Below, piece after piece: positions 2,377 to 59,867 of a stretch of 64,000 bases of DNA (the first letter of the stretch is position 1; each line of letters opens with the position of its first letter). The translations under genes were made by a program, and so were the position numbers. The DNA comes from Eledone cirrhosa. Its lineage: Eukaryota. Location of the stretch: assembly GCA_964016885.1 (NCBI GenBank), contig OZ024745.1, positions 119,970,001 to 120,034,000 on the forward strand. Reading direction: 5' to 3'. A model generated the notes under the pieces. That model had not been told where the DNA came from. It saw only the letters and a program-made list of their open reading frames with translations, and did not search any database.

Positions 2377-4236
2377 GAGTCTGAACGACGTCTTTTTGCT
2401 TGCTCCCGTAAGTTCACTTATTTACCTGCTCGATGGTCAAAATTAATGGCCACCTCTCGGAACCGTTTCAGGTCTCCCGATCGGTCCGTCAAGGGTGCCC
2501 TCCCTCCTCCCTTCTGTACGTATTGACTCTCGAGCCTTTACTGCGGAAGCTGGAGCTGTTGCAGAGCATCCCGCTCGAACCGGGACGCGGAAAGGCTGTG
2601 ACGACATCACCGTGATGGTGTCGGACACTCAGAAATCGAGGTGGTCGGCAACTTATTGGAGGAATACGAAAGGTGACGGGAGAAAAACTTAACCCGGAAA
2701 AGTCAGTAGGCTTGAAACTCGGCACCTGGAGAGGCAAGTCCATGCCGTCCAACAGCGTCGTTAGGCGCTGGACAGACGGACCGGTAAAGTTGCTAGGGGT
2801 TTGGTTCGGGCCAGACCTCCAGGTGGATAAGAATTGGGACGAGGTGACGGGCAGGGTAGTGAGTCTCACCCAGAAATGGGTTGGGATGAAACTATCACTG
2901 AAAGGTCGGGCGGAGGTGGCGAACGCGTACATCGCGTCCGTCATCTACTACCGTCTGACTGTCGTCCCTTGCCCCGTTCGCGCCTCCCCATCTTGGAGAG
3001 GCTCCTCTTCAAATTCTTGTGGAGGGGTCAGGTTCCGCTGGTGAGGCGGTCCATCTGCTGCCAGCACCCTCTACGTGGAGGGCTGGGCATGCAGTGGCTA
3101 ATGATTCGCAGGCACGCGCTGGGACTGCGGCATCTCCAGATATTCTGCCTAAACGGTGAACAGGTGTGGTCGCCGTTTGTCAGACGGGCCTTTCCGCAGC
3201 TCGTTTCTTTGACTGAGTTGCAGTCCTGGGTCAAGAAGAGACCGAGACTGGGTGACTGGCATCTGGAATGTTGCCAGGCACTCACTGCCCTCTACCAGGC
3301 GGGCAATGCGGTCAGTGGAACTTCCACTCTCGAGTTCTATAAAGGATTAGTGGTGGGCAAGTGCGACGACGCACTCGGAGAGGCTCTGGGAGTCAACGAA
3401 ATAGAACTAATCAGTCTGTACCGGAGGACTTTCGAGCCGGGGACGATGGATAATTTCCCAAAATCCCTCGCTTGGCAGTGCTACCGGGGGGCACTGCCGC
3501 TTCGAGATAAACTCTACAGGCATGGAAGTGCTGTCAGACGGACCTGCCCGAGATGCGCGCAGAGCGACGAAACCGTTCTGCACGCACTCGTCCAGTGTCC
3601 GTGCATTACTGACTTGTGGAGTTATGTTGAACAGCTGTTGTCGCGTGTAGAACGGATCCGGCTATCGGCCGAGTCCATAGTGAAGATCGACCCGCCGCCT
3701 TCTTTTGGCCAGGAAGGGCAGGCAATTTTCCTATGTCTGGTGGCAGTAGCGAAAGAGGTTGTATGGTGGACAAGGTTGAAAGGACTGAAGACAGACACTT
3801 TTCTCTTCGGCCAATCCCTCATCAACTTTTTCAAGTTTCACTTGGAAAGGAAGGTGAGGGTGGAGAGAGAAGTGTTGTCCCCCAGTACATTTGCTGAAAG
3901 GTGGGTGAATGTGGCGAGAATGGCCCGTGTGAGTGCGCCTACTCTGGTTATGCGGCTGTAGGTAGGTAAATTTGAGGAGGAGGTGTGCCCTTCCAGGGTG
4001 CTCTCAAAGCATCGGGTCGTTCAGGATTGGTGGGGTACCTGAGCGAACCCTGGGTGATCATCCCCCCTATTGGGGTATTTTTTCTTGTTGTAATTTTATT
4101 GGTACTTTGTTATTGTTATTCATATTGTTTACTCGATTTTTTCTGTAAAAACCCACTGTCCCAGTCTTTTGTATTGTCCCCTATATGTCGGCCCTTGTGG
4201 CCAATAAATGAAATCATTATTATTATTATTATTATT
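2377..4236 (+). mobile_element. Tx1-family internally deleted copy with (ATT)n tail
   Basis: 2431-4215 aligns closely to 8261-10058 with frameshifts. 2377-2430 matches the 5' terminus of the copy at 43053-43107 (minus strand). Confidence 0.92.
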
Positions 4237-4447
4237 GACGAAAGTGGATGTACGTTTTTTGAAGCTCCGTGAGTAAGCAATTTTTGAGGATTAATTGTAG
4301 AGAATTGTTTATTTTTTGTACCGCTGAAGCATTATAAGACATTAATTTGTATCCTGTGAAGGAATAACTCATAATATTTGGGCCTTTTGGCCCAAATATT
4401 TGAACTTTATTTTGAAAAAAAAATAATAATTTTTTTCTCAAAAAAAC

Positions 4448-6358
4448 ATGGCGGAGCCACGCCCCCTAGAGGCGGGTCTGCTGTCGTGCAACGGCGACTT
4501 GAGCGTTGAGAGGAGAGGTGAGGCGAGGAGCGCCACCAGCACGAATGTGAGCAGCGACAGTGCCAGCACCAACGGGCCGAGCGGCGCGGAAGGTGGTAAC
4601 AGCGACAACACCAACACCAACAAGCCGAACAGCGCAGAAGGTGGTAATAGCGAGAGCACCAACAAAACGAACAGCACAGAGAGTAATAGTAGCGACAGCA
4701 GCAGCACCAACAAGGCCAACAGCACAGAAGGTAACCACGACACAGGGGAGAACAACAACAGCAATAGCAGCAGCAACACCAACAAGAACAACAACAGTGA
4801 CAACACCAACAAGAACACTTTCGCTGCTGTGGCAGCGGCTAAAAGGAGACCATGCTACAGCATCGACTTAACCAACAGAGAGGAAAAGTTGGCCCAGGCC
4901 TGGAAAATCATAAATCAAGAGCAGACCTGGGCAAACTTAACTGTCCCGGCAGAAGCCATTGAGGCAGTGGAAAAAAGAACGGTGCATTTCAGATGCATCT
5001 CAGTAGAGACAAAGAGGGCAGCGATAATCGCCCAAGCTGACATAGAAGCCGCACTGAAATACATCAGAGAGGACACAGACTTCATAGAGAGGGGCAGGCA
5101 ATACGGCACCGTTTCGGTGCTGTTCAAGTCTGAAGCCCTCGCTGTGAAGCATTCAATGACCCCTTGCAAAACCAGCAAGGTCATAATGTACCCCTCCCAC
5201 ATGGGAAAACGAATAGCACGTGTGCGCATTCCCAGGATTCCACCAGGACTTGATATGTGGTGGCTCCTGGGTTGCGTAATCGTGGAAGGAACGGATACAG
5301 TCCCGGTAGAGGCAACGAGAACTGCCAGGGACGACTGGTCCGGGGTTGATCTGGAGATACTGCTCCAAATCAGACCCGAAAACGTGAAAGCAATCCCGGA
5401 CCACATCCGCCTCCAAAACGGGAGGGTGTTGCATATAATGACTGAGGGCAAAAGGCCGCATTGTTTCCTTTGTGGGGAAACGACACACTTGCGAGCCTTC
5501 TGCCCTCAACTGCCGAAAAGCGCAAGGGGTCGAAAGATTCCACTGCTGGCGACGCCGGGACAAGGACCACCAGCAACACCGTCAACAATGGAACCACCAA
5601 AATTGCACACCCAGGGGGGAAACGAGGAAAGCTCTCCCATTCCCCCTCCCCCCAAAAATACACACACGAACAAGAACATAAACACTCACTCAGACACAAA
5701 CACGCTCACAGCCACAGACCCCTCATCCTCCAGCAGTGAAGATGAGGGAAAACCAAAGTCCCCCAAAATACAAAAAACAAAACACAAAAAAAAAAGAAAT
5801 CCACAAAGCACAAACACCCCCACAAAAGAAAATACACACACCACCCACACAAACATTTTCCTCACAGCATCACCAACACAACCACCAAAATCCCCCAAAC
5901 GCAAACAAGCTAAACAGACACAAGAACAAATAGAGACACAAACATCAGAAACTACAGACACCCCACCCACAACAAACGCAGACACAATAGAAACAACACT
6001 AACAAAGCTATCACCACCACAATCACACGAACAAATAAAACCCGAGCAACAAAACATTAAAAACTTCGTGCTTGCCAGAAGGGCCAACAAAGAATTGATG
6101 GCCCATGTAGCACGAAGCACAAACATCGAAAAAGACGGGGAAACATTTGAAGCGAGCACATTTCGCGTACCAGATAATTTGCTTCTGATGCGAATGTCGC
6201 TCGCTTCATACAAAGAATTTCGAAAGAGCTTTCCTCGGGATGTGGGAACCCCGAACGTAAAACCCACGTCAAGACTATTAAAGGGGTTCCCAAAAGAAAC
6301 CCCACAAACCATGGAGGTCGAACCACCCGACCTTCACAAGACCCCGGAAGGTAAGTAA
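4448..6358 (+). CDS. Retrotransposon ORF1 (gag-like nucleic-acid-binding protein)
   Basis: 636 aa ATG-initiated ORF directly upstream of ORF2. S/N/T-rich N-terminus, CX2CX4HX4C zinc knuckle (CFLCGETTHLRAFC), then a P/T/K-rich disordered region. Confidence 0.9.
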   Translation: MAEPRPLEAGLLSCNGDLSVERRGEARSATSTNVSSDSASTNGPSGAEGGNSDNTNTNKPNSAEGGNSESTNKTNSTESNSSDSSSTNKANSTEGNHDTGENNNSNSSSNTNKNNNSDNTNKNTFAAVAAAKRRPCYSIDLTNREEKLAQAWKIINQEQTWANLTVPAEAIEAVEKRTVHFRCISVETKRAAIIAQADIEAALKYIREDTDFIERGRQYGTVSVLFKSEALAVKHSMTPCKTSKVIMYPSHMGKRIARVRIPRIPPGLDMWWLLGCVIVEGTDTVPVEATRTARDDWSGVDLEILLQIRPENVKAIPDHIRLQNGRVLHIMTEGKRPHCFLCGETTHLRAFCPQLPKSARGRKIPLLATPGQGPPATPSTMEPPKLHTQGGNEESSPIPPPPKNTHTNKNINTHSDTNTLTATDPSSSSSEDEGKPKSPKIQKTKHKKKRNPQSTNTPTKENTHTTHTNIFLTASPTQPPKSPKRKQAKQTQEQIETQTSETTDTPPTTNADTIETTLTKLSPPQSHEQIKPEQQNIKNFVLARRANKELMAHVARSTNIEKDGETFEASTFRVPDNLLLMRMSLASYKEFRKSFPRDVGTPNVKPTSRLLKGFPKETPQTMEVEPPDLHKTPEGK

Positions 6359-6387
6359 ACCTTTCCTCTCCCATTCATCCTGCCAGC

Positions 6388-9300
6388 ATGGCCATAAGAG
6401 TAGGAAGTTTAAATGTTCGTGGCCTGGGGTCGCCCTGGAAGCAAGGTCACTTGCTCAACGACCTCAGGTCACTAGGAATGGATGTAATTGCCATCAGCGA
6501 GACCAGAATTTCCGACACACGCGCACTGGCGCCGATTTTCGACGATTATCAGATCTTTGCATCTGTTAGTCGGCCGGGAATGGGAGGTGGAGTGGCTGTG
6601 CTGTTTAGGAAATGTCTGGATCTCGAGGTAAGGTCAATCTTCCGGGATCCTGACGGAAAGTTGGTGGTCCTGGACGTGAGCAATAGCGAAGGTGGTGCCT
6701 TTAGACTGGTGGCCGTCTACGCCCCTACTGGGGCCGGTCGGCCGGACTTCTTTAGGCGCCTGGAAAACTTTCTGCTTACGTCTCGCCCTTTACTGTTAAT
6801 AGGGGATTGGAATGGCATCTTAGAAGCACGCTGGGATTGTGTGGGAGTATCTGATAGGAGCGGGGGGTGCAAAAGCCTCAAGTACCTGATCAGCCAGTTT
6901 CAACTGCCTGACAGGTACCGACTAGATTTCCCTAATGCGCCAGTATGGACCTGGACCAATCGCATAGGGTCATCTAGATCGTACATAGATAGGATTTTCA
7001 TTAGGAAAAGAGATAGAAATAGTGTAGGATGTCCACATTTTAAAACGGTTGCCTATTCAGATCACAAGCTTGTGATCTGTATGGTCGACCTAGATAAGAC
7101 ACGTAGGTTAGGACCTAGCTACTGGAAGCTAAACATGTCGTTTCCGGCACGTAAAGCTTACAGGGACCGGGTCAACAACTTAGTTAAGCAAAAGTTGACA
7201 GGGGGGGTTGTCAACAACAGGTGGTGGGGGGCACTCAAAAGAGAGATTAGAGCAACCTCGATAGGATTTAGCAAAGAAGTAGCAATAGAGAAAAATAGAA
7301 AAGAGGAGGGGCTGATAGCTAAGTTAGACGAGGCTATTTGTAGTGGCATTGCAACAGACGTGCTAGCGGCGAGAATGGCACTAGACCATTTCTTCAATGC
7401 GAAACACGAAGGTTGCATTGTCAGAGCTAAGGCGCGTGCTCTGAGGAACGAGGGAACCAAAGCTGCCCGATGGGCTCGCTTTGCAGAGACGCAGCGTGGA
7501 AATAAAACCACAATTCGGTCTTTGACGGATCGAGATGGACACGAACTGAGCGATTCCAAGCAGATGTGTGAGGCCTTTCGCCAGCACTTTGCTCGATTGT
7601 TCGGGAGGATGGGTGAGTCGGAGATGGCGGCGGACTTCAGTCCCTACCTCGACGGCTTGCCACGCCTCTCGACGGCCGACGCTGAGCGCTGCGAAGAGCC
7701 GATAACATCAGCCGAAATTCAGGACGCCCTTGTCGGCTGCTCGAGTCGCAAGTCACCCGGTTTGGATGGTCTGCCCTACGAGCTTTACGTAAATATGCCA
7801 GACTTGTTCTCCGATCTCCTCGAAGCGCTCTACTGCAACTGGCAGCAGAACGGGAGCATTCCCAGTTCTGTGAGCCGTGGCGTAGTGACGCTGATAAGGA
7901 AAGACGAGAACAAGAGGGACACACTAGATAATTTCAGGCCCATAACCCTGCTCAACACAGAGTTTAAGATTTTGGCCAAGGTGTTAGCGAAAAGGTTGGC
8001 GCTTGTCGTCAAAGATTTGGTTGGGGAGGCGCAAACTTGCGCAATCCCGACCAGGTCCATACACGACAACCTCCACCTCATGCGATACATCATAGAGAGG
8101 GTTGGGTGCAAACCTGGCTTCGGTGGGGCTCTGATCAATTTAGATCAATCGAAAGCATTCGATAGGGTCGACCATCGGTACTTGGAGGCTGTCCTCGAGG
8201 CGGCTGGCTTCGGCCCCGTCTTCAGAAGCTGGATCGCTGCAATGTACAGCGGCATCCGCTCGGTGGTCAAAGTTAATGGCCACCTCTCGGAACCGTTTCA
8301 GATCTCTCGATCGGTCCGTCAAGGGTGCCCTCTCTCCTCACTTCTGTACGTATTGACTCTTGAGCCTCTACTGCGGAAGCTGGAGTTGTTGCAGGGCATC
8401 CCGCTCGAACCGGGACGTAGAAAGGCTGCGTCCGCTTATGCAGACGACATCACCGTGATGGTGTCGGACACCTCGGAAATCGAGGTGATCCGCACCCATT
8501 TGGAGGAATATGAAAGGTTGACGGGAGCAAAACTTAACCCGGAAAAGTCGGTGGGCTTGCAGCTCGGCACCTGGAGAGGCAAGTCCATGCCGTCCAACAG
8601 CGTCGTTGGGCGCTGGACAGACGGACCGGTAAAGTTGCTCGGGGTTTGGTTCGGACCAGACCTCCAGGTGGATAAGAATTGGGACGAGGTGACGAGCAGG
8701 ATAGCCAACCTCACCCAGAAATGGGCTGAGAGAAAGCTATCACTGAAAGGGCGGGCGGAGGTGGCGAACGCGTACATCGCGTCCGTCATCTACTACCGCC
8801 TGACCGTCGTGCCTTGCCCCCGTCCACGCCTCGCCAATTTGGAACGGCTCCTTTTCAAATTTTTGTGGAGGGGACGGGTCCCGTTGGTGAGGCGGTCCAT
8901 CTGCTGCCAGCACCCTCTTCGTGGAGGGCTGGGCATGCCGTGGCTAATGATGCGCAGACATGCGCTGAGGCTGCGACATCTCCAGATATTTTGCCTAAAC
9001 GGTGAACAGGTGTGGTCGCCGTTTGTTAGACGGGCCTTTCCGCAGCTCATCTCTTTGACTGAGCTGCAGTCCTGGGTCAAGAAGAGACCGAGACTGGGCG
9101 ACTGGCATCTGGAATGTTGCCAGGCGCTCACTGCACTCTGCAAGGTGGGCAATGCGGTCAGTGGAACTTCCACTCAAGATTTCTATAGAGGATTAGTGGA
9201 GGGCAAGTGCGATGACGTACTAGGAGAGGCTCTGGGCGTCAACGAAGTAGAACTGACCAGTATGTTCCGGAGGACTTTCGAGCCGGGGACGATGGATAAC

Positions 9301-9807
9301 TTCCAGAAATCCCTCGCTTGGCAGTGCTACCGGGGGGCGCTGCCGGTTCGGGATAAACTCTACAGGCACGGAAGTGCTGTCAGACGAACCTGCCCGAGAT
9401 GCGCGCAGAGCGACGAAACCGTTCTGCACGCACTCGTCCAGTGTCCGTGCATTGCTGACTTGTGGGGTTATGTCGAACAGCTATTGTCGCGTGTAGAACG
9501 GATCCGGCTATCGTCCGAGTCCATAGTGAAGATTGACCCGCCGCCTTCTTTTGGTCAGGAAGGGCAGGCAATTTTCCTCTGCCTGGTGGCAGTAGCGAAA
9601 GAGGTTGCATGGTGGACCAGGTTGAAAGGACTGAAGACAGACACTTTTCTCTTCGGCCAATCCCTCATCAACTTCTTCAAGTTTCACTTGGAAAGGAAGG
9701 TGAGGGTGGAGAGAGAAGTGCTGCCCCCCAGTACATTTACTGAAAGGTGGGTGAATGTGGCGAGAATGGCCCGCGTGAGTGGGCCTACTCTGATCATGCG
9801 CCTGTAG
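6388..9807 (+). CDS. Retrotransposon ORF2: APE endonuclease + reverse transcriptase + C-terminal zinc-binding domain
   Basis: 1139 aa. APE motifs SLNVRGL, ISETR, VYAP, GDWN, IDRIF and SDH. RT motifs SPGLDG, FRPITLLN, LDQSKAFDRVDH, VRQGCPLS and YADD. C-terminal CPRC..ETVLHALVQC, typical of L1/Tx1. Confidence 0.96.
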   Translation: MAIRVGSLNVRGLGSPWKQGHLLNDLRSLGMDVIAISETRISDTRALAPIFDDYQIFASVSRPGMGGGVAVLFRKCLDLEVRSIFRDPDGKLVVLDVSNSEGGAFRLVAVYAPTGAGRPDFFRRLENFLLTSRPLLLIGDWNGILEARWDCVGVSDRSGGCKSLKYLISQFQLPDRYRLDFPNAPVWTWTNRIGSSRSYIDRIFIRKRDRNSVGCPHFKTVAYSDHKLVICMVDLDKTRRLGPSYWKLNMSFPARKAYRDRVNNLVKQKLTGGVVNNRWWGALKREIRATSIGFSKEVAIEKNRKEEGLIAKLDEAICSGIATDVLAARMALDHFFNAKHEGCIVRAKARALRNEGTKAARWARFAETQRGNKTTIRSLTDRDGHELSDSKQMCEAFRQHFARLFGRMGESEMAADFSPYLDGLPRLSTADAERCEEPITSAEIQDALVGCSSRKSPGLDGLPYELYVNMPDLFSDLLEALYCNWQQNGSIPSSVSRGVVTLIRKDENKRDTLDNFRPITLLNTEFKILAKVLAKRLALVVKDLVGEAQTCAIPTRSIHDNLHLMRYIIERVGCKPGFGGALINLDQSKAFDRVDHRYLEAVLEAAGFGPVFRSWIAAMYSGIRSVVKVNGHLSEPFQISRSVRQGCPLSSLLYVLTLEPLLRKLELLQGIPLEPGRRKAASAYADDITVMVSDTSEIEVIRTHLEEYERLTGAKLNPEKSVGLQLGTWRGKSMPSNSVVGRWTDGPVKLLGVWFGPDLQVDKNWDEVTSRIANLTQKWAERKLSLKGRAEVANAYIASVIYYRLTVVPCPRPRLANLERLLFKFLWRGRVPLVRRSICCQHPLRGGLGMPWLMMRRHALRLRHLQIFCLNGEQVWSPFVRRAFPQLISLTELQSWVKKRPRLGDWHLECCQALTALCKVGNAVSGTSTQDFYRGLVEGKCDDVLGEALGVNEVELTSMFRRTFEPGTMDNFQKSLAWQCYRGALPVRDKLYRHGSAVRRTCPRCAQSDETVLHALVQCPCIADLWGYVEQLLSRVERIRLSSESIVKIDPPPSFGQEGQAIFLCLVAVAKEVAWWTRLKGLKTDTFLFGQSLINFFKFHLERKVRVEREVLPPSTFTERWVNVARMARVSGPTLIMRL

Positions 9808-10088
9808 GCTGGTGAATTCGAGAAGGAGAGGGGTGCCCTTCCCGGGTGCCCTAGGAGCGTCGGGTGGCTCAGGACTGGTGGGGTGCTTGAGTCAACCCTG
9901 GGTGGTGATCCCTCTTATTGGGGAACTTTCATTGTTGTATTTTTATTATTTTGTTTTTCTTGTTATTTATACTTACTCGATCTCTATGTAAACCCCCACT
10001 GTCCCTGTCTATTGTGTTGTCCCCTATATGTCGGCCCTTGTGGCCAATAAATGAAATCATTATTATTATTATTATTATTATTATACAA

Positions 10089-10291
10089 GGGCGGTGGATT
10101 GGCAGTATCAGCAGAGGGTCGGACGCCATGCTTTCCAGCATAGTTACGTCCCTTTACGGTCTGAGTTCAAATCCCGCCGAGGTTGACTTTGCCTTTCATC
10201 CTTACGGGGTCGATAAAATAAAGTACCAGTAATGCACTGGGTAAATTTTGGCCTTGTGCCTAAAGTAGAAACAATTATTATTATTATTATT
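10089..10291 (+). mobile_element. SINE family A, full length
   Basis: GGGCGGTGGATTGGCAGTATC head, B box GAGTTCAAATCC, conserved core and (ATT)n tail. The central core resembles my recollection of the MetaSINE domain (not verified). Confidence 0.9.
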
Positions 10292-18995: not shown

Positions 18996-20206
<1,211 letters not shown>

Positions 20207-20353
20207 CAGGGAGATAACGTGAAGTTACTGTAGGTTCACCCAGAGGAGCACTCGATGTTTAGGTGCACGTCAGTATCGAGGTGTAGAGCTAAACAGAGTG
20301 TAATATAATGAAACAAGGACGCTTTGTTGAGCCTTCATTACGTTCATTGATTG

Positions 20354-20436
20354 GTGACGCACGTTTCGCTATTGATCAACTCAAGGTTCGATATGTATCG
20401 ATCTGGCGCGACTCTGGAATCAAAGCTCGTCGGACT
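20354..20436 (-). ncRNA. Degenerate hammerhead motif
   Basis: Minus strand reads CCGACGA (one core change)-GCTTTGAT...ATCAATAGC-GAAAC GTGC GTC. Confidence 0.45.
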
Positions 20437-20478
20437 TCTGCTTTTGATTTCAGCGTCGGAACACACACATACACACGA

Positions 20479-20592
<114 letters not shown>

Positions 20593-20596
20593 ATCT

Positions 20597-21303
20597 ATAT
20601 TATTGGCATCCGTCGGTCTCGAAAGACAATGGACCTGCGCCTGCCGACTTATGTGTCAGCTACTGATGGCAGTGCAGTGTCTGCAGTCACTGTAGAGGCC
20701 CACACTGGAGTGGCAGTTCTGTATACAGAGAGTGCATTTGAAGGAGCCGTCCTCAGGTGCTACTGCGTTGTCCTTTTTTCGAGCATTCTTTTCCCCAGAT
20801 TCAAGTTTCAGATGCTCCCGCTCCGCTCCAGTACACGTGTCAATTATGGGCGATCATTAGCGACCTCCTCCTATTTCTGGGTGTCAAAAAATCATTTGAC
20901 TTCATCTCCCTCCTATGTCTTTGAAACGGAGATGAGATGCTGCTCGTGTTTTTGTGCCGGTGGCCAGTTCCCATACGGTAGGTCTTTCGGTATCCTCGCA
21001 TCCGGCATACAATATATGTGACCGAGCCGGCGTATACGACGCTGCTTGAGAAGTGTGTATATGCCGGTTATCTTGGTGCGGTTGAGCACTTCAGTGTTGG
21101 TGACCCGGTCAGCCCACTTGATATCCAGAATGCGTCCCAGGCTACGTAGGTGGAGGACACTGGGACGTTGCTCCTGTCTGGAGTAGAAGTGCCATGTCTC
21201 ACTACAGTAAATTACTGTGCTGAGGACACACGCCTTGTAGACAGTAATCTTGGTGTTTGTAGTTAAGTTTCTGTTTTCTCTGACTTTCTTCGTTAGCCTG
21301 GCA
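20597..21303 (-). mobile_element. RTE-clade LINE 3' fragment
   Basis: TKITVYKACVLSTVIYCSETW...RILDIKWADRVTNTEVL...GHIYCMPDARIPKDLPYG is the typical RTE post-RT region. Confidence 0.85.
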
Positions 21304-39429: not shown

Positions 39430-39654
39430 AATTTTCTTACATTTTACTTCTTTCTAAGAGAAATAAAACACCTCTAGATTTCTTTCTAACACAAAACAAC
39501 ACATTCTTCTCGGTTCCATGAAAAGCATCTTTCTGTAATGTTTCATTTCCAAACTTCCTTCTTTCTGGCATCAATGTCTTTCTCCTTATTTATATCTTCT
39601 ATATATCTTCCATCTGTATCAATCTTTCTAGATCTTTATTATTTTAAGTAGATA

Positions 39655-40404
39655 GATAGACGGATTGATATCCACACACACATACACACAGATAGATACA
39701 CTGACATAGACACACACACACATATACAGACACACATACACACACAGACACACACAGACACACACACGCGCGCAGACACAGACAGACACACACACGCGCG
39801 CAGACACAGACACAGAGACACACACACACACACATAGATACACTGACATAGACACACATACACACACAGACACACACGCGCGCAGACACAGACACACACA
39901 CACACGCACACACATAGATACACTGACATAGACACACACACAGACACACACACACATACACACACAGTCACACGCAGACACAGACACACAGACACTCACA
40001 CAGAGAAACACACACACAGGCACAGATACACACACACAGACACACACATACACATTCACACACACACACACACACTTACAGGCACACATACACACACAGA
40101 CACACACATGCGCACACAGACACACACAGACACACACACGCAGACTGTGACACAGACACACACACACACACGCAGACACATACACACACATGCACATATA
40201 GGCACACACGTACACACATACACATTCACACACACACATACAGACATACACAGACACGCACATACATAGCCCCCCCCCCCCCCACACACACACACACGTA
40301 TATATAGACGGCTAAAAAATCACAATAACTTCAAATATACATTGACAAAAGGATATGAATCACTTCAATCTCTTTCTCTCTCTCTCACTCTCTCTCTCTC
40401 TGTC

Positions 40405-40445
<41 letters not shown>

Positions 40446-41115
40446 ATCTGTATTTGTATATGTGGTGTGTGTATGCCTAGAATGAGAAGGAAGTGAGTAA
40501 GTCACACACATATATATATATATACAGACATACACCACACACACTTAACACATACACACATATATATATATACAGACACACACACAAACACATACACATA
40601 TATATATATATATATATATACAGACACACGCAAACACATACACATATATATATATACAGACATACACACATACACACACACATATATATATATATATATA
40701 CAGACATACACACACACAAACACATACACATATTTTTCAAATATCTTACTTTTTTTGGGTCTCAATCTACCCACGCACACCCACACACACAGACATATAT
40801 ACATATACATATACATGCGTGTGTATGTGTGTATGTATGTCTGTGTGTATGTGGGTATGTGTGGGTGTATGTGCGTGTGTACGTGTGTATATGTGGGTAT
40901 GTGTGGGTATGTGTGAAAGCGTGCATGTGTTTGTGTGTATGTGAGTGTGTGTATGTGGGTATGTGTAGGTGTATTTGTGTGGATGTACATATGTTTGAGA
41001 GTGTGTATATATATATGTGGGTATGTGGGTGTGTGTATGTGTGTATGTGTGGGTGTATATGTGAAGGTGTGCATGTCTTTGTCTATATATATATATATGT
41101 GCGTATGTGTGTGTC
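39655..41115. repeat. Cryptic CA/GA/TA-rich simple-repeat block
   Basis: Seen directly, with internally duplicated ACACATAGATACACTGACATAGAC units. Confidence 0.9.
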
Positions 41116-41292
41116 GATTGAGACAGAATGAAAGGAAGATGTTTGAAAAATGTTGGACGAGTCATTCATTCGGATCGCAGTTAGATTCATTTGGTTTTTG
41201 ACGTTTTTCTTCATATTTTCTATAGTAATTTATTGGCCGCTGACAATTTCACTCTACCACCCCCTTCCTTCCGCAACGATTATGTTCCAACA

Positions 41293-43107
41293 ACAATAAT
41301 AATAATAATAATAATAATAATGCTTTCTTTATTAACCACAAGTGTTTACATAAAGTAGACATTAAGGACAGTACAGGACAATACAGGACGGTACAAATGG
41401 GCATTTCTGCGTGTGAAAACAAAAAAAAACAGAGGATGTATCAAAAAGAAAAAAAAAAGAAGAAACAACGATGAATTCCCCAATAGGGTGGAGACTTACA
41501 AGGGCTATCGTGGAGAAAGCCCATTAAAAAAAGCCACGGTGACCCTGACCACAATGGGCAAGTGCCCACTCCCAGTTTTCCACCTTCAATTTACAGGCAC
41601 ATACTCAGAGTAGGCCCATTCACACGAGCCATTCTTGCCTCTCTCACCCATCTTTCAACAAAATGCTCGGAAGAGAGCACTTCCCTCTCTACCCTGATTT
41701 TCCTTTTTAAATGAAATTTGAAAAGGTTAATCAGGGCATCACCGAAGAGGTAAGTGCTCGTCTTCAGCCCTTTCAAACGCGTCCACCATAGTATCTCTTT
41801 CGCCATGGACACCAGATAGATAAAAATTGCCTGCCCTTCCCGGCTAAAGGAAGATGGCGGGGCAATCCTCACGATGGACTCAACTGATAGCCGGATCCGT
41901 CCTACACGCCACAGCAGGTGTTCGACACAAACTCACAAGTCAGCAATGCTCGCACACTGGACGAGTGCGTGCAGGACGGTTTCGTCGCCCTGCGCACATC
42001 TCGGAATTACCCGGCTGACGGCACCTCCATGCCTGTAGAGTTTATCCCGAACTGGCAAGGCTCCTCAGTAGCACTGCCAGGCCAGGGATTTCTGGAAGTT
42101 GTCCATAGGCCCCGGCCCGAAAGTTCTTCCGAAGAGATTGGCTAGTTGATTTTCGTCGACGCCTAAAGTTTCCTCAAGTACGTCGTCGTTCTTCCCCTCC
42201 ACTAATCCTCTATAGAACGCCAAGGTGGAGTTTCCACCTATCACATTGCCCGATAGGACGAGGCCTGTGAGCGCCTGAAGACATTCCAGTCTCCATGTCT
42301 GCGTCTCTCCCACCAGATCTCTGACGACAAGCGCCAATCTCTTTGCTAACACCTTGGCCAAAATCTTAAAATCTTAAACTCTATTGTCATTTCTTGACAC
42401 CATGGCTCTTGCGACTGCCATCTCCTGTCCGTGACTAGCACTGTCTCTATGTTTCGGGCCACACCTGCGAAAGAAGTGGCCCCTTTTTCAGCGGCACCAC
42501 TATTGCTGCCGCTACTGCTGCTAGTGTTCTCGTTGTTGCTGCTGCTGCTGTTGCTACTGCTACAAACGGTGTTGTTGGTGTTGTTGCTGTTATCACCGTT
42601 GTAGTTGGTTGTGTCTTTGGTGCCATCGTTGTTGTTTTCAGTCCAATTTGTATTGTTGCTGTTGGTGTTGTCGTTGTTTATTTTCTTGTTAGTGGTGTTA
42701 ATATCGTTGTTGCATTTGTCGTCATTTTTTCTCTGTTGTCTGTATTTTGGTTGTCGCTGTTATTGTAGTAGTCGGTATGGTCATTTTTTTTAAATTAGTG
42801 TTCTCAGTGTTGTTATCTTTGTTCATGTTGTTTGTGGTGGTCTATGTTGTATTAATTTCTGTAACCCTCCTCTCAACTTTAACACCGTTGTCACACGACA
42901 AAAGACATATTGCCGGGGGCGTGGCTCAGCCTTGTTTTTTTTTGCAGATTTTTAAAAGTAAAATGTTCAAATATTATACTTTTCCCTTCGCAGGGCAAAG
43001 TCCAAGGACCTATATCCCTTACACAACAAGAACAATTAAACAACAAATAATTCTAGCAGGTAAATAAAGCGACTTACCAGGAGCGAGCAAAAAGACGTCC
43101 GAACAGA
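41293..43107 (-). mobile_element. Tx1-family relative, multiply deleted (5'UTR, ORF1 start, RT snippet, ORF2 3' end, 3'UTR, (ATT)n tail)
   Basis: Minus strand carries ORF1-start-like GCTGAGCCACGCCCC (about 42915-42931). ORF 42065-42361 fuses AKVLAKRLALVV to LECLQALT. ORF 41591-41872 is the ORF2 C-terminus. (AAT)n on the plus strand at 41295-41321. Confidence 0.88.
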
Positions 43108-43334
43108 CCTTGTTGTCTCTTGAGGTCACTGGTTGTGACTTGGTGATAACTCGTATGAACATAAAGCAAAATAAATGCAACTGTAATAATAATAATAATA
43201 ATAATAATAATGATACTGGGAACAGCAAGAACCCTCCGATACGCCCTGAATATCTGAGGCTGCATGTAGTGGCTTGATATTCATTTCAACAAACTTTCCA
43301 GTTAACCAACATCAATGACTGAGACTCAAAGAAC

Positions 43335-43424
43335 AATAATAATAATTATAATAATAATAATGGTTTCTTATATAGGCACAAGGCCAGTAATTTGGGGGAG
43401 GTGAAGTCGATTAAATCGACCCCA
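43335..43424 (-). mobile_element. SINE family A long-variant 3' fragment with (ATT)n tail
   Basis: Minus strand reads GGGGTCGATTTAATCGAC...GGCCTTGTGCCTATATAAGAAACC(ATT)n. Confidence 0.85.
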
Positions 43425-43425
43425 T

Positions 43426-44094
43426 GTTTTCTTTATTAACCACAAGGGTTCACATAAAGTATAACATTAAGGACAGCACAGGACAATACAGGAAGTTACA
43501 AATGGGCATTACTGCATGTAAAGAAAAATAAACAAAGCAAATGACAAAAAAAAGAAACAGGAATTTCCCCAATACTTCCGAGGGACACCCGTGGAGAAAG
43601 CCCATTAAAAAGCCACTGTGACCCTGACCACCAGGGCAAGTGCCCTCTCCCAGTTTTCCACCTTCAATTTATAGGCGCATACTATCCTCTCTCACCCATC
43701 TTTCAACAAATTGCTGGGAAGAGAGCACTTCCCTCTCCACCCTGATTTTCCTTTTCAAATTAAAATCGGTTTTACCGAAGAGGTAAGTGCTCATCTTCAG
43801 CTCTTTCAAACGCGTCCACCACACGATTTCTTTTGCCATGCCCACCAGGCAGATAAAAACTACCTGCCCTTCCTGGCTAATGACGGCGGGGCAATCCTCA
43901 TGATAGACTCACCTGATAGCCGGATCCGTCCTACGTGTGACAGCAAGTGTTTGACATAAACCCACAAGTCAGCAATGCTCGGACACTGGACGAGTGCGTG
44001 CAAGACTGTTTCGTCGCCCTGCGCGCATCTCGGACAGGCCCGGCTGATGGCACTTCCGTGCCCGTAGAGTTTATCCTGAACTGGCAAATCTCCT
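43426..44094 (-). mobile_element. Tx1-family 5'-truncated copy
   Basis: ORF 43860-44141 contains LPVQDKLYGHG..CPRCAQGDETVLHALVQCP. The 3'UTR matches 41325-41590. (ATT)n lies at the 5' junction (44095-44108). Confidence 0.88.
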
Positions 44095-48040: not shown

Positions 48041-48999
48041 GGTGTGTGTGTATATATTAATGTACACATGCCGATGGTAGGGATCAATTCCTTTTTAAAT
48101 TCCTTGATTTTATTGAATTACTTGTAAATTGTGAATGAGTAGATATATTTCTAATTTGGGAACTCTCCTGCCACTCCTCACCAAACCACCAGCAATATCG
48201 TTTTTACCATTGAACGGCATTCTTACAACTACAGTTGCTATAAACTGCAAATGTGTTTTGCAGTTATGCTTACCTAAAGCATCTTCGTCATGAATGAAGT
48301 TCAATCTATGCTATGCATCATTAACATTTAAATTGTTTATGCTGCAGCACAATATGCACTGTTTCAACTCAATTAATCTTTGTATTCTAACATCAACATC
48401 AGCAATACTCTCCACATGATGCTCATTGATGTGGATGACATGTTTAGAAATTGGTGCCGTTTCAGGAAAACATATTACCTGCCAGCATGTACCATGACGG
48501 ACGAACGTGTGTTGAATATTATGCAGTACACTGGTGCTAGCCTCATTTATGTTATTCGTCTTCCCTATGAAATCCTGAATAAATTGCTGCACAAACTGGT
48601 GGGATGGCGTCAAAGGATCACACGCTCTATTTAACAAACATATAATGGCAAACACAATTCGCACAGTTGGGGAGGCATTATATATCGCATCTATTTGGCA
48701 TCTATTTCTCATCATTGTTTAGGATATTTCTATTTCTGACTAAGGCTATTTAAATGCTGCAAATGATTTTTAAATCTGGAAGCTCTTTTTACATTCAATA
48801 ATTGCATTAAAAAGGGGGATTCTACTTGTTTTATATGCTGCATACATTATGGAGATTATTTTACTGCTTTCAGTTATTCACGCATGATAAGGAATATCTA
48901 AGTTGAGATAATGTTTGACATCTTCCTCACTTTCATATAGTGTAGCCCATACCACAAATAGTCAACTTCTGTTTCGAACATTTTACAATATTTGTCTTT

Positions 49000-49815
49000 C
49001 AGAACTTTCTTGAATATAAAATGAACAAATATAGATGTACCAAGATCAAACACGTTTTGAAACATGAACGCATCAAAAGATCATACTCCATTACAAAAGA
49101 TGCACAAAGATACAGTAACGAACTACAAATTTCAGAAGTCACATTTACTGCTGAAGTGAAAATCACTGAAAAAGCAAAGCAGGTAAAAGTAACTGCAAAG
49201 ATAGAACTGCTACAGCAATTGGCTAAGAAATGGCAAGAAAAGCCTCTGTATGGAAAATACCCAGAAAGAGCTAACAATCCTGATGTTGACAAAACTTTAA
49301 CACATCAGTGGTTGGCATCCTCTGGATTGAAATCAGAGACTGAAGGACTGATTATATCAGCAAAAGATCAGTGTCTGCCAACAAAAAATTATCGAGCCAA
49401 CATAATAAAAAATGGGTGCAACCCAATATGCCGTGTATGTAAAAACCAACCAGGGACCATTGATCATATAATTTCAATATGCAGTCCTATAGGTCCAATC
49501 GAATACATAAACAGACACGACAGAGTTGCACAATACATACATTGGATAATGTGTAAGCATTTTGACCTGCCTCATCAACAGAATTGGTGGGAGCATCAAC
49601 CACCTCCGGTACTTGAAAACGATCACATCTCAATCTTGTGGAACTTTAGCATCCAAACAGACCGAAAAATAGATGCAAATAGACCTGATATAATACTGAA
49701 GGACTAAAACAATACCAGTGGTTGTAGGCGCTCTAGAAATGATACCTAAGGGGTATAACGATTACTTATCGCAAATCCCAAGAAACCCGCGTACAGAAGA
49801 AATACAAAAGGAGAT
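49000..49815 (+). mobile_element. R4/Dong-clade LINE 3' fragment
   Basis: WQEKPLYGKY..SETEGLI..CRVC..TIDHIISIC..RHDRVA..ANRPDII. Confidence 0.88.
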
Positions 49816-57642: not shown

Positions 57643-57769
57643 ATATTGCTATTTTTGTTTAGTTTTGTTTTGCCCTTCTTTTTTTCTCACTTTTCTTTTA
57701 TCTTTAGACCTATATGAATTTGTTTAATTTCTATATATCTATCAATCTATCTAGGCTGGATAGCTGCCA

Positions 57770-59475
57770 TGCACACCAGCATCTGCTCGGCATTCAAGGT
57801 GAATGGCTACCTAGCGGAGCCATTCCAAATCATGCGTTCCATCCGTCAGGGATTTCCTCTCACCTCCATTCTGTATACTCTCGAGCCATTACTGTTCAAG
57901 TTAGAGCTGTTGCAGGGCATCCCGATCGAACCTGGACTGCAGAAAGCAGCGTCGGCCTTTGCCGACGACATAATCGTAATGGTGTCGAAAATCTCGGAAA
58001 TCTGGGTAATCGGCAACCTATTACAGGAGTACGAAACGTTGATAGGAGCAAGACTAAACCCAAACAAGTTTGCAACTCGGCACGTGGAGAGGGAAACCCA
58101 TGCCTTCCGACGGTGTTGTTGGACGCAGGACGGAAGGACCGGGGAAATTGCTTGGGGTCTGGTTTGGTCCAGACCTCTAGGTGGACAAGAAATGGAACGA
58201 GATCACGGCGTAGGTGTTTGCACTGACCCAGAAGTGCGCTGAGTGCAAACTCTCCTTGAAAGGTCGAGCGGAGGTGGCGAACACTTACATAGCGTCCGTC
58301 ATCTACTACCGCTTAACAGTCGTGCCTTGACCCTGCGAACACCTCACCAAAATGGAACGCCTACTCTTCAAGTTCCTCTGGAAGAAACAGGTTCCATTGG
58401 TGAGGAGATCCATCTGCTGTCAACACCATTCTAACGGAGGACTGGGCATGATGTAGGTGATGATGTGCAAACACACCCTGAGGCTACGCCATCTCCAGGT
58501 ATTCCTGACCGGTGAACCGGTGTGGCTGTCGTTTGTGAGACAAGCTCTTCAACAACTCGTCTCTCTAACAGTGCTGCAGCCCTTCGACATTCTATAGGGG
58601 CATAGTGGAGGATAAGTGCGATATAAGTTCTTGGGAAACTCTAGGCATCGAGGAGGAGGAAGTGACCAGTCTGTTCGGGAGGACTTTCCGTCCAATGCCT
58701 ATGGATAACTTCCAGAGGTCTCTGGCCTGGCAGTGCTACCGAGGAACTCTACCAGTTTGAGACAAATTTTACAGGCACAGACGCCCTGGCAGAGATCCTG
58801 TAAAAGGACCGGTCCAAGATGCGAGCAGGGCATCGAAACAGTTCTGCACGCAATTGTTCAGTGCCCAGGGGTGACCGACCTGTGGAATTATGTCGAACAG
58901 CTACTGTCACGTGTGAGACGCATCCAGTTGTCAGCCGAGTCCATCGTGTGGATCACCCCGCCGCCTTCATTTAAGAATGAAGAAGAGGCGGTCTTCCTCT
59001 GTCTGGTGGCTATGGCGAAAGAGGTAATATGGTGGACGAGGTTAAAAGGACTAAGGGCAAACACCTTTCCCTCCGGACAACAACTTATCCCCTTCTTTAA
59101 GTACCACTTCAAAAGGAAGGTGAGAGTGGAGAGAGAGGTGCTACACCCCAGTATTCGCTGAAAGGTGGGTGAATGTGGCGAAAATGGCCCGAGTGAATGG
59201 GCCTTCTCAGTATATAAACCTGTAGGTTGAGGAAGATAAACAGAGGGAAGAGAGGAACACCTACAAAACGTGTTCCTGGTGTTGAGGGTTGTTCTATCCA
59301 CGGGGTGTAAAACAACCCTGCTGTAACGTTCCCCCTTATTGGGGATTTCAATTGTTATTTTATTATATATAGTTTATTGTTATTTACTAATGTTAAACTT
59401 ATATGATTTTTATGTAAAACCCCCGTCACGTTTTGTTATGTCCCATTTTTGTACGCCCCTGTGGCAAATAAAGAA
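57770..59475 (+). mobile_element. Tx1-family 5'-truncated, decayed copy
   Basis: Fragments VNGYLAEPF..IRQGFPL..FADD and CEQGIETVLHAIVQCP..WWTRLKGL. The 3' end has GCCCCTGTGGC followed by AAATAAAGAAA. Confidence 0.88.
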
Positions 59476-59867
59476 ATATATCTATATATCTTATTTATCT
59501 ACCTAACTATCTAGCTGGCTAGCTAGCTATATATATATATCTTTTTACCTATCTACCTACCTATCCATACCTTTATCTATATATCTATCAATCTATCTAT
59601 TTCATGTTACTTTTCCACGGTCTCCTTTCTTAGACTAAATTCAAGCCATATTCTCTTTTTGCGCACTGTCGTGTTCAATTTAGTCCTCGTTCACTATTTA
59701 TGAAACACACACACACACATGCACGCACGCACACACACACATGCACGCAAACACGCACGCGCTCACACATACCCAAATAATAATATACCCATACACACAG
59801 GCACATGTATATATATATATGAATCGCCTCCCCTCTCTCTCCCTCTCTCTCTCTCCCTCTCCCTCCC

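What the first reader, a model, noticed from the sequence alone, without database searches (positions are those of the whole stretch)
10030..10291. Tx1 LINE and the abundant tRNA-SINE share a 3' stem-loop (CUUGU loop) plus an (ATT)n tail, with covariation
Seen: the LINE ends GGCC-CTTGT-GGCC-AATAAATGAAATC-(ATT)n (10033-10082, also 4190-4236). The SINE ends GGC-CTTGT-GCC-(A/T)AAAGTAGAAACA-(ATT)n (10250-10291 and most other copies). Other LINE copies keep the hairpin with different paired bases: AACC-CTTGT-GGTT (43438-43450, minus) and GCC-CCTGT-GGC (59455-59465). Known: stringent SINE/LINE pairs (e.g. eel UnaL2/UnaSINE1, CR1 and RTE partners) share a 3' stem-loop recognised by the RT, whereas mammalian L1 is relaxed and poly(A)-dependent. 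Inference: this is a stringent-type Tx1 element with a microsatellite tail, and it mobilises the dominant SINE of this genome.
Basis: partly seen in the sequence, partly recalled or inferred. Interest (0 to 1): 0.82.

Follow-up and report, generated by a model that had tools for sequence, protein, structure and literature searches.

The report
Microsatellite-targeting LINE shares SINE's tail hairpin
An active jumping gene that inserts into ATT repeats ends in the same tiny hairpin motif as this genome's most abundant short repeat, which likely borrows its copying enzyme; this kind of partnership is known, but rarely from this branch of elements in animals.

Summary
The sequence observation holds at all five stated coordinates. 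The LINE is an intact, young L1/Tx1-group element. Its last ~25 nt (3-bp stem, CYTGT loop, AATAAA, GAAA) occur in 20 of 20 copies picked by protein homology alone, and there are 24,101 exact genome matches against 119 for the control. The dominant tRNA-like SINE (at least 153,360 copies) has the same loop, GAAA and spacing, with one stem pair swapped (C-G to G-C). No other LINE family found here (3 CR1, 3 R4, 4 RTE ends) matches as well.

Corrections: (ATT)n is largely target DNA, not a tail. The LINE sits inside (ATT)n microsatellites; sister lineages use (ATCT)n. The SINE needs only ATTAT and makes 8-20 bp duplications. A CR1 family also ends in (ATT)n. Covariation rests on about two events, the fourth pair is often broken, and the SINE hairpin folds weakly in prediction.

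Best reading: ATT-type Tx1 lineages mobilise the SINE (about 0.68); strict hairpin recognition is inferred and untested. Tx1-driven SINEs and stem-loop L1 pairs in plants are published; this combination was not found in ten literature searches. Repbase was not checked.

The parts
4237..10058 (+). Full-length young L1/Tx1-group LINE (subfamily A), 5.8 kb; starts directly after the (ATT)n run of the upstream copy
   Evidence: 20 of 20 genomic copies share this 5' end, 97.7-99.6% identical
4448..6358 (+). ORF1, 636 aa from the first ATG, one CCHC zinc knuckle; no Pfam hit
6388..9807 (+). ORF2, 1139 aa from the first Met (open frame from 6355): AP endonuclease, reverse transcriptase, C-terminal zf-RVT
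10033..10058 (+). LINE terminal motif: stem GGCC 10033-36, loop CTTGT 10037-41, stem GGCC 10042-45, AATAAA 10046-51, GAAA 10053-56
10059..10082 (+). (ATT)8: target microsatellite and duplication, possibly with some added tail
   Evidence: ATT runs on both sides of 19 of 19 resolved copies
10089..10273 (+). tRNA-like SINE, short subfamily (185 nt): A-box- and B-box-like head, central body, terminal motif
10250..10273 (+). SINE terminal motif: GGC 10250-52, loop CTTGT 10253-57, GCC 10258-60, 7-nt spacer, GAAA 10268-71; no AATAAA
10274..10291 (+). (ATT)6 after the SINE; unusually long for this family (median 2 units)
2428..4236 (+). Older 5'-truncated LINE copy (about 90% identical) whose (ATT)n run holds the full-length copy
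41322..42374 (-). Subfamily B LINE fragment, stem AACA/GGTT (one mismatch), (ATT)n end; 3' limit approximate
43425..44086 (-). Subfamily B LINE fragment, stem AACC/GGTT, followed by the 3' part of a long-type SINE; 3' limit approximate
57745..59477 (+). LINE fragment of an (ATCT)n-ending lineage, stem GCC/GGC, loop CCTGT

Best explanation
The LINE is an active L1/Tx1-group element that inserts into (ATT)n microsatellites, and the dominant tRNA-like SINE, which ends in the same loop, GAAA and spacing, is likely copied by the enzymes of its ATT-type lineages. Shown: structure, copy numbers, shared motif, flanks and duplications. Inferred: ORF2 binds the small CUUGU hairpin plus GAAA near the RNA end, nicks the bottom strand at 5'-C/T^ATTAT-3' sites, and primes where the freed ...TAAT-3' DNA end pairs with the AUUA just after GAAA-NN, which would explain why no poly(A) is inserted despite the AATAAA. 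Inferred: LINE RNA carries several AUU units and so favours long arrays, while SINE RNA carries one or two and so uses any ATTAT site. That the hairpin is required (stringent type) is a further inference, about 0.5 on its own.
For: Motif in 20 of 20 LINE ends picked only by ORF2 C-terminal homology in 1.06 Mb of unselected sequence (14 exact, 6 with 1-2 edits), across subfamilies whose upstream UTR is 34-62% identical between lineages. Present in 113 of 134 SINE copies picked by body homology; stem and loop columns 93-100% conserved, spacer 52-95%, GAAA 91-96%. 3'-anchored scores of four SINE ends: Tx1 21-32 (z 2.2-4.8) vs at most 21 for ten other LINE ends. Pairing 78.7% vs 64.6% shuffled, 0 of 500 shuffles; slid controls 15-53%. 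SINE ends followed by [A/G]TTA in 247 of 274 and by ATCT in 1, matching the ATT clade (100/100). SINE duplications in 65 of 127 vs control mean 5.6, mode 16 bp. Two truncated ATT-type LINE copies show short duplication-like flanks at non-microsatellite ATTATT sites (by eye). SINE target copies start with (ATT)3 in 9 of 58 vs 3% background. Both are young.
Against: Shared stretch is only ~25 nt; published bivalve pairs share 35-61 bp at 72-95% (PMC11481361, passage), and the second SINE here matches an RTE 3' end over more than 100 bp (by eye). Target strictness differs: ATT units after the end median 5 (27 of 38 with >=3) for LINE vs 2 (18 of 113) for SINE, P=6e-9. Predicted stem pairing is about 0.8 in LINE subfamilies A and B but 0.03-0.25 in full-length SINE RNA, and 0.02-0.5 in some LINE variants; no fold beat its shuffles (z -1.05 to 1.28). 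Fourth pair unpaired in 13 of 27 rows; the A-U third pair marks one lineage; the two pair-count measures were not above shuffles (375 and 447 of 500). CR1-B scores 18-21, equal to the lowest Tx1 score. LINE families under a few thousand copies would be missed in 1 Mb.
Confidence: 0.68

Rival explanations
1. The SINE depends on another, low-copy or extinct LINE family (L2, Nimb/I, or an unsampled CR1 or Tx1 lineage) that gave it the tail; the likeness to the sampled Tx1 ends is indirect or convergent.
For: Looser target choice than sampled Tx1; short shared stretch; L2 is reported among coleoid LINEs (PMC8967140, passage) but no L2 end was recovered here.
Against: In 1 Mb, tail-motif hits were SINE (89), Tx1 (9) or, of 86 others, truncated or degenerate SINE and Tx1 ends and noise, by eye. 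Two genome-wide patterns built to catch a non-SINE carrier gave SINE variants or very short SINEs in 30 of 30 and 30 of 30 inspected loci. The SINE is still young, so its driver should have young copies.
Confidence: 0.14
2. The active CR1-A family, which also ends in C(ATT)n, mobilises the SINE through the AUU repeat alone; the hairpin likeness to Tx1 is a relic or chance.
For: CR1-A is abundant, 93-99.7% identical between copies, and ends in (ATT)n.
Against: Different hairpin (ACCTGA loop); anchored score 4-10, z at most 0.1. Of 15 5'-truncated CR1-A copies one shows a clear long duplication and two lie in tandem repeats (by eye), unlike the SINE's 8-20 bp duplications.
Confidence: 0.07
3. 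Tx1 does mobilise the SINE, but the conserved motif serves 3'-end processing or RNA stability (it abuts AATAAA), and reverse transcription is chosen by AUU-primer pairing, not by hairpin binding. This is a sub-case of the best explanation on partnership and a rival on mechanism.
For: AATAAA is invariant next to the stem; the stem is only 3 bp; the SINE hairpin is weak in context.
Against: The SINE lacks AATAAA yet keeps loop, stem, spacing and GAAA across subfamilies with differing spacers; distant L1/Tx1 relatives have AATAAA and A-rich ends without this hairpin.
Confidence: 0.3
4. A CR1-B/C family (GGCC-hairpin tails ending in GAAAC or AAAAC) is the partner.
For: Second-best anchored score, 14-21 (z 1.0-2.7); 9,083 genome matches vs 30 control.
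Against: None of the first 100 matches has a CTTGT loop; 29 of 30 loci continue with their own 8-11 nt terminal repeats and then mostly (AT)n, which the SINE lacks.
Confidence: 0.04

Closest known systems
Kibi and Koshi, and crocodilian microsatellite Tx1 families (PMC4494074, parts 2-4 read; PMC3812793, passages)
   Same: AP-endonuclease Tx1-group LINEs that insert into microsatellites
   Different: Those target (TC)n, (TTC)n, (TTCC)n or (TTTC)n in vertebrates; here (ATT)n and (ATCT)n in a probable octopod. No SINE partner or 3' hairpin was described in the text seen.
SINEU with Tx1-Mar in crocodilians (PMC4494074)
   Same: SINE assigned to Tx1 machinery by shared target preference and age; tandem insertions
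   Different: SINEU has snRNA heads and poly(A) tails, and no LINE sharing the SINEU-1 3' end was found; here a tRNA-like head and a shared structured 3' motif, with no poly(A).
Maize/sorghum ZmSINE2/3 with LINE1-1_ZM; Chlamydomonas SINEX-3 with L1-1_CR (PMC3472496, PMC3747384, passages)
   Same: L1-clade LINE with a conserved 3' hairpin, compensatory changes, conserved loop and 3' flank, shared with tRNA-SINEs and read as stringent type
   Different: Plants and algae; about 50-80 nt shared; monocot hairpins of -10 to -18 kcal/mol; poly(A) or poly(T) ends. Here an animal, ~25 nt, a 3-bp stem and microsatellite ends.
Eel UnaL2/UnaSINE and zebrafish ZfL2-1/2 (PMC4176376, passages)
   Same: Loop identity matters more than stem sequence, as the pattern here suggests
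   Different: L2 clade, longer stems, and shown by assay; nothing here is assayed.
Octopus SINEs: OK/OR1/OR2 and the 'tRNA-Deu' class (cited in PMC4824008, PMC4758252, PMC8967140; the 1994 paper was not seen)
   Same: Probably the same host group; this SINE may be one of these
   Different: Identity not established: no consensus could be read. No partner LINE was named in the passages seen.
Dong (R4 clade), TAA-microsatellite targeting (PMC3812793, passage)
   Same: Uses the same microsatellite
   Different: Opposite orientation: two R4 families here end in (AAT)n and share no tail motif with the SINE.

Membership tests
Tx1 clade (L1 group) | N-terminal AP endonuclease plus RT in ORF2 | tested here: met
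   PF03372 1.7e-14, PF00078 1.3e-29
Tx1 clade (L1 group) | RT closest to the L1 group | tested here: met
   human L1 ORF2p 3e-57 vs R2 5e-22; apart from own CR1, R4 and RTE (98/99, long branches)
Tx1 clade (L1 group) | ORF1 with CCHC knuckle; C-terminal Cys/His zinc motif in ORF2 (feature list recalled) | tested here: met
   zf-RVT 1.1e-8
Tx1 clade (L1 group) | Target-specific insertion | tested here: met
   ATT runs on both sides of 19 of 19 resolved young copies
Tx1 clade (L1 group) | Groups with named Tx1 elements (Tx1L, Kibi, Koshi, Keno) in an RT tree | not testable with these tools
   No named Tx1 reference was returned; the label Tx1 rather than another L1-group lineage is inferred
tRNA-derived SINE (SINE2) | Short, dispersed, high copy, with target duplications | tested here: met
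tRNA-derived SINE (SINE2) | tRNA-derived head with A and B boxes | tested here: inconclusive
   B box identical to a tRNA-Thr of this genome, but z only 2.5 among 13 called tRNA genes; no Rfam or ARAGORN hit
tRNA-derived SINE (SINE2) | Pol III transcription | not testable with these tools
   no RNA holder listed
Stringent SINE/LINE pair | Shared 3'-terminal sequence, best among LINE families | tested here: met
   only ~25 nt, and only 10 non-Tx1 ends compared
Stringent SINE/LINE pair | Conserved stem-loop with compensatory changes | tested here: inconclusive
   Pairing above shuffles and slides, but about two events, 3 bp, weak predicted fold in SINE
Stringent SINE/LINE pair | Same terminal repeat and insertion signature | tested here: inconclusive
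   Same ATTA register but different strictness
Stringent SINE/LINE pair | Concurrent activity | tested here: met
   not discriminating, as CR1 families are also young
Stringent SINE/LINE pair | Stem-loop required for retrotransposition | not testable with these tools
   needs a cell or in vitro assay

The most novel reading that the evidence does not exclude
An animal L1/Tx1-group lineage gave up poly(A)-based priming for a minimal 3-bp hairpin recognition tag plus repeat-primer pairing, so that the RNA's own 3' repeat rather than the endonuclease alone sets target choice. One enzyme would then give a microsatellite-specific LINE, (ATT)n and (ATCT)n sister lineages, and a far less specific SINE that became the largest SINE family of this genome.
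Probability: 0.3. Interest if true: 0.72.

Novelty: new variant of a known kind. Interest (0 to 1): 0.5.

Why it matters
It would name the engine behind the largest SINE expansion in this genome, probably an octopod's, where SINEs are a main repeat class and no partner was named in the papers seen. It would add an animal case to the open question of whether stringent or relaxed RNA recognition is ancestral in the L1 group. It also supplies an intact, 99%-identical element with sister lineages that switch target (ATT vs ATCT) while keeping the RNA tag, a direct way to test how much target choice comes from the endonuclease and how much from RNA-primer pairing.

Tried and rejected
Cross-species conservation of the hairpin could not be tested. 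The 72 metagenome loci were distant (about 22-51% in the best segment); 32 were inspected, none showed the motif beside AATAAA by eye, several ended in A-rich tails, and some lacked the 3' end. Contigs laid from four runs did not cover the hairpin. No RNA holder was listed, which is no evidence either way. PF09004 as a probe for L2-like families rang nowhere, controls included, so it is uninformative. Rfam and ARAGORN gave nothing for the SINE head. Folding energy against shuffles did not support structure. A position-ordered set of 40 LINE copies for duplication analysis could not be fetched, so LINE duplication lengths rest on a few held copies. R4, RTE and CR1-B/C were rejected as partners by terminal repeat and score. 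SINEBase supplements were unreadable; supplements of three SINE papers held no string of this SINE's body (one file each not searched in two), so the central domain (Deu/Nin or Meta) is unassigned. Three look-ups of earlier findings returned nothing.

Full report
Observation. In the window, 22 hairpins with a C[CT]TGT loop and at least 3 bp of stem exist; 12 end SINE copies, 4 end LINE copies and 6 are unrelated. The window lies in a 3.0-Gb genome. The nearest named relative of ORF2 is from Argonauta hians, 69% identical over the RT, so the host is probably an octopod (inference).

The LINE. Window 4237-10058 is an intact element with ORF1 (CCHC knuckle) and ORF2 (AP endonuclease, RT, zf-RVT). 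Its best solved relative is human L1 ORF2p (3e-57, vs 5e-22 for R2). Twenty genomic copies picked by 3'-end identity are 97.7-99.6% identical, and all 20 keep the same 5' end, three with internal deletions. In the 19 of 20 that the script resolved, ATT runs flank both sides (6-53 nt 5', 11-42 nt 3'). The element is therefore microsatellite-targeted, like Kibi and Koshi (PMC3812793, passage; PMC4494074, parts 2-4), and its 'tail' is at least largely target. A tree of 31 copies puts ATT-ending subfamilies in one clade (100/100), with (ATCT)n-ending lineages outside it (two rows from one tandem locus share a segment). The name Tx1 rests on these features; no named Tx1 reference was available for a tree.

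Is the motif general? In 1.06 Mb not selected for the motif (1 Mb of arbitrary stretches plus the window), 20 of 20 loci picked only by ORF2 C-terminal protein homology carry it 194-270 nt downstream, 14 exactly and 6 with 1-2 edits. Genome-wide there are 24,101 exact matches vs 119 for the reversed control, 4,118 of a subfamily-A-type pattern. Between lineages the UTR 50-150 nt upstream is 34-62% identical, the terminal stretch 80-93%, though the latter is partly set by the picking pattern.

The SINE. It has at least 153,360 copies of one exact tail pattern and outnumbers the second SINE 87 to 22 in 1 Mb. Of 134 copies picked by body homology, 113 carry the motif; stem and loop columns are 93-100% conserved, the 7-nt spacer 52-95% and GAAA 91-96%. 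Aligned on the loop without gaps, the SINE keeps the closing C-G pair and the third G-C pair and swaps the second from C-G to G-C. GAAA lies at the same distance from the loop as in LINE subfamilies B, C and the ATCT lineages, and one base closer than in A. The head has box-like motifs and a B box identical to a local tRNA-Thr, but overall similarity is weak (z 2.5).

Covariation. On 27 distinct rows (29 of 30 position-ordered LINE loci, one noise hit dropped; 8 of 30 SINE loci chosen to include variants; 2 window ends), 78.7% of cells pair vs 64.6% shuffled (0 of 500) and 15-53% for slid partners. The counts of pairs and pair types were not above shuffles, and the fourth pair fails in 13 of 27. 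A hand count of the first 100 genome matches gives 92 paired at the third position (53 G-C, 37 A-U, 2 G-U), but the A-U form marks one lineage. So there are about two independent compensatory events. Predicted pairing is about 0.8 in LINE A and B, lower in several variants, and 0.03-0.25 in full-length SINE RNA (0.17-0.95 locally). The hairpin is plausible as a protein-stabilised tag, not shown.

Rival partners. RT searches found CR1, R4, RTE and LTR-like families; their 3' ends were read from copies. Against four SINE ends, the four Tx1 ends scored 21-32 and ten other ends 3-21; CR1-B was second at 18-21 (60 shuffles each). CR1-B/C have their own terminal repeats, then (AT)n (29 of 30), and no CTTGT loop in the first 100 of 9,083 matches. 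CR1-A is active and also ends in (ATT)n, but has another hairpin and few duplications (1 clear of 15 truncated copies, by eye). R4 families end in (AAT)n, the other strand. Two patterns designed to expose a non-SINE carrier of the SINE tail returned only SINE forms in 60 inspected loci. Rare families remain unexcluded. As an internal comparison, the second SINE matches an RTE 3' end over more than 100 bp (by eye), much longer than the 25 nt here.

Insertion signature. Duplications were found for 65 of 127 short-type SINE copies (mismatched-pair control mean 5.6, maximum 12; a few tandem copies share one duplication), 8-26 bp with mode 16, starting at ATTAT and preceded by C in 50% vs 17% background. 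Target copies begin with (ATT)3 in 9 of 58 vs 3% background. SINE ends are followed by [A/G]TTA in 247 of 274 and ATCT in 1. Against a simple match: ATT units after the end have median 5 for LINE (38 ends) and 2 for SINE (113 ends; P=6e-9). Two truncated ATT-type LINE copies among 32 candidate junctions show short duplication-like flanks at non-microsatellite sites (by eye). Both families are young: picked SINE copies differ by a median 1.1% from their nearest neighbour, unselected ones by 5.4%.

Mechanism. Shown: shared motif, register, targets, ages. Inferred: ORF2 recognises loop plus GAAA; the nicked ...TAAT-3' end pairs with AUUA just downstream; longer AUU runs on LINE RNA favour long arrays. 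Loop-specific, stem-tolerant recognition is the tested rule for zebrafish L2 (PMC4176376, passages); extending it here is analogy.

Known versus new. A Tx1-driven SINE is published (SINEU, no shared tail found, poly(A); PMC4494074). L1-clade pairs with a conserved hairpin are published for maize, sorghum and Chlamydomonas (PMC3472496, PMC3747384, passages; the latter, which tabulates 58 pairs, has no 'octopus', and its five 'Tx1' mentions are all in running text). Mollusc SINE papers name CR1, L2, Nimb and CR1-Zenon partners in the passages seen (PMC4824008, PMC4758252, PMC11481361). Octopus repeat papers list L1-Tx1 or SINEs without pairing them in what I read (PMC13282606 part 1 of 3; PMC8967140 and PMC9115989 passages). 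PMC5786205 and PMC3531059 have no 'Tx1' in the main text. Ten searches found no report of this pair, but Repbase, Dfam, SINEBase, subscription papers (including the 1994 octopus SINE paper and the 2004 target-specificity screen) and unread supplements may hold it.

Verdict. Real feature; partnership likely (0.68); stringency about even; a new variant of a known kind; interest 0.5.

Noticed in passing
L061-L080 (5' junctions); window 4237: All 20 young LINE copies picked by their 3' end keep the 5' end, and the resolved ones join in the same register (ATT then G). That is unusual for LINEs, which are mostly 5'-truncated; it may reflect homology-aided 5' joining to the repeat.
   Followed up: partly
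L245, L255, L256, L260, L262, L263, L265; window 59455-59500: Sister lineages end in and sit within (ATCT)n while keeping the same hairpin: a target switch inside one family group.
   Followed up: partly
L094, L241, L247, L270; window 43300-43360: Two R4/Dong families use the same microsatellite in the opposite orientation, giving tail-to-tail arrays with the LINE and the SINE (9 of 67 ATT-type LINE ends examined).
   Followed up: partly
L417, L389: A second tRNA-SINE family (22 per Mb) ends in more than 100 bp matching a local RTE 3' end with (ATG)n: a conventional SINE/RTE pair, possibly the known octopus CORE-SINE (label recalled).
   Followed up: partly
window 4373-4400: Perfect 12-bp inverted repeat with a 4-nt loop in the LINE 5' UTR, followed by a weaker A/T-rich one at 4407-4446.
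   Followed up: no
L036-L040; L300: SINE tandem arrays: five copies at about 192-bp spacing, and five copies each followed by the same target sequence.
   Followed up: no
L432, L438, L443: SINE insertions truncated to little more than the hairpin and tail; two show clear target duplications.
   Followed up: partly
L373-L402: CR1-B and CR1-C families (about 9,000 ends) are almost always followed by (AT)n-rich sequence, suggesting a third microsatellite niche.
   Followed up: partly
whole window: SINE density here (23 hits in 64 kb) is about three times the 1-Mb sample (127), and the window holds six LINE 3' ends found by protein homology.
   Followed up: no
L090:8076, L081: Abundant palindromic repeat (40 hits, both strands counted, in 1 Mb) in (AT)n context, MITE- or Helitron-like; not classified.
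   Followed up: no
window 19194-21021, 39628-41161, 48946-49707: Open frames of 216-342 aa without Pfam hits; not examined.
   Followed up: no
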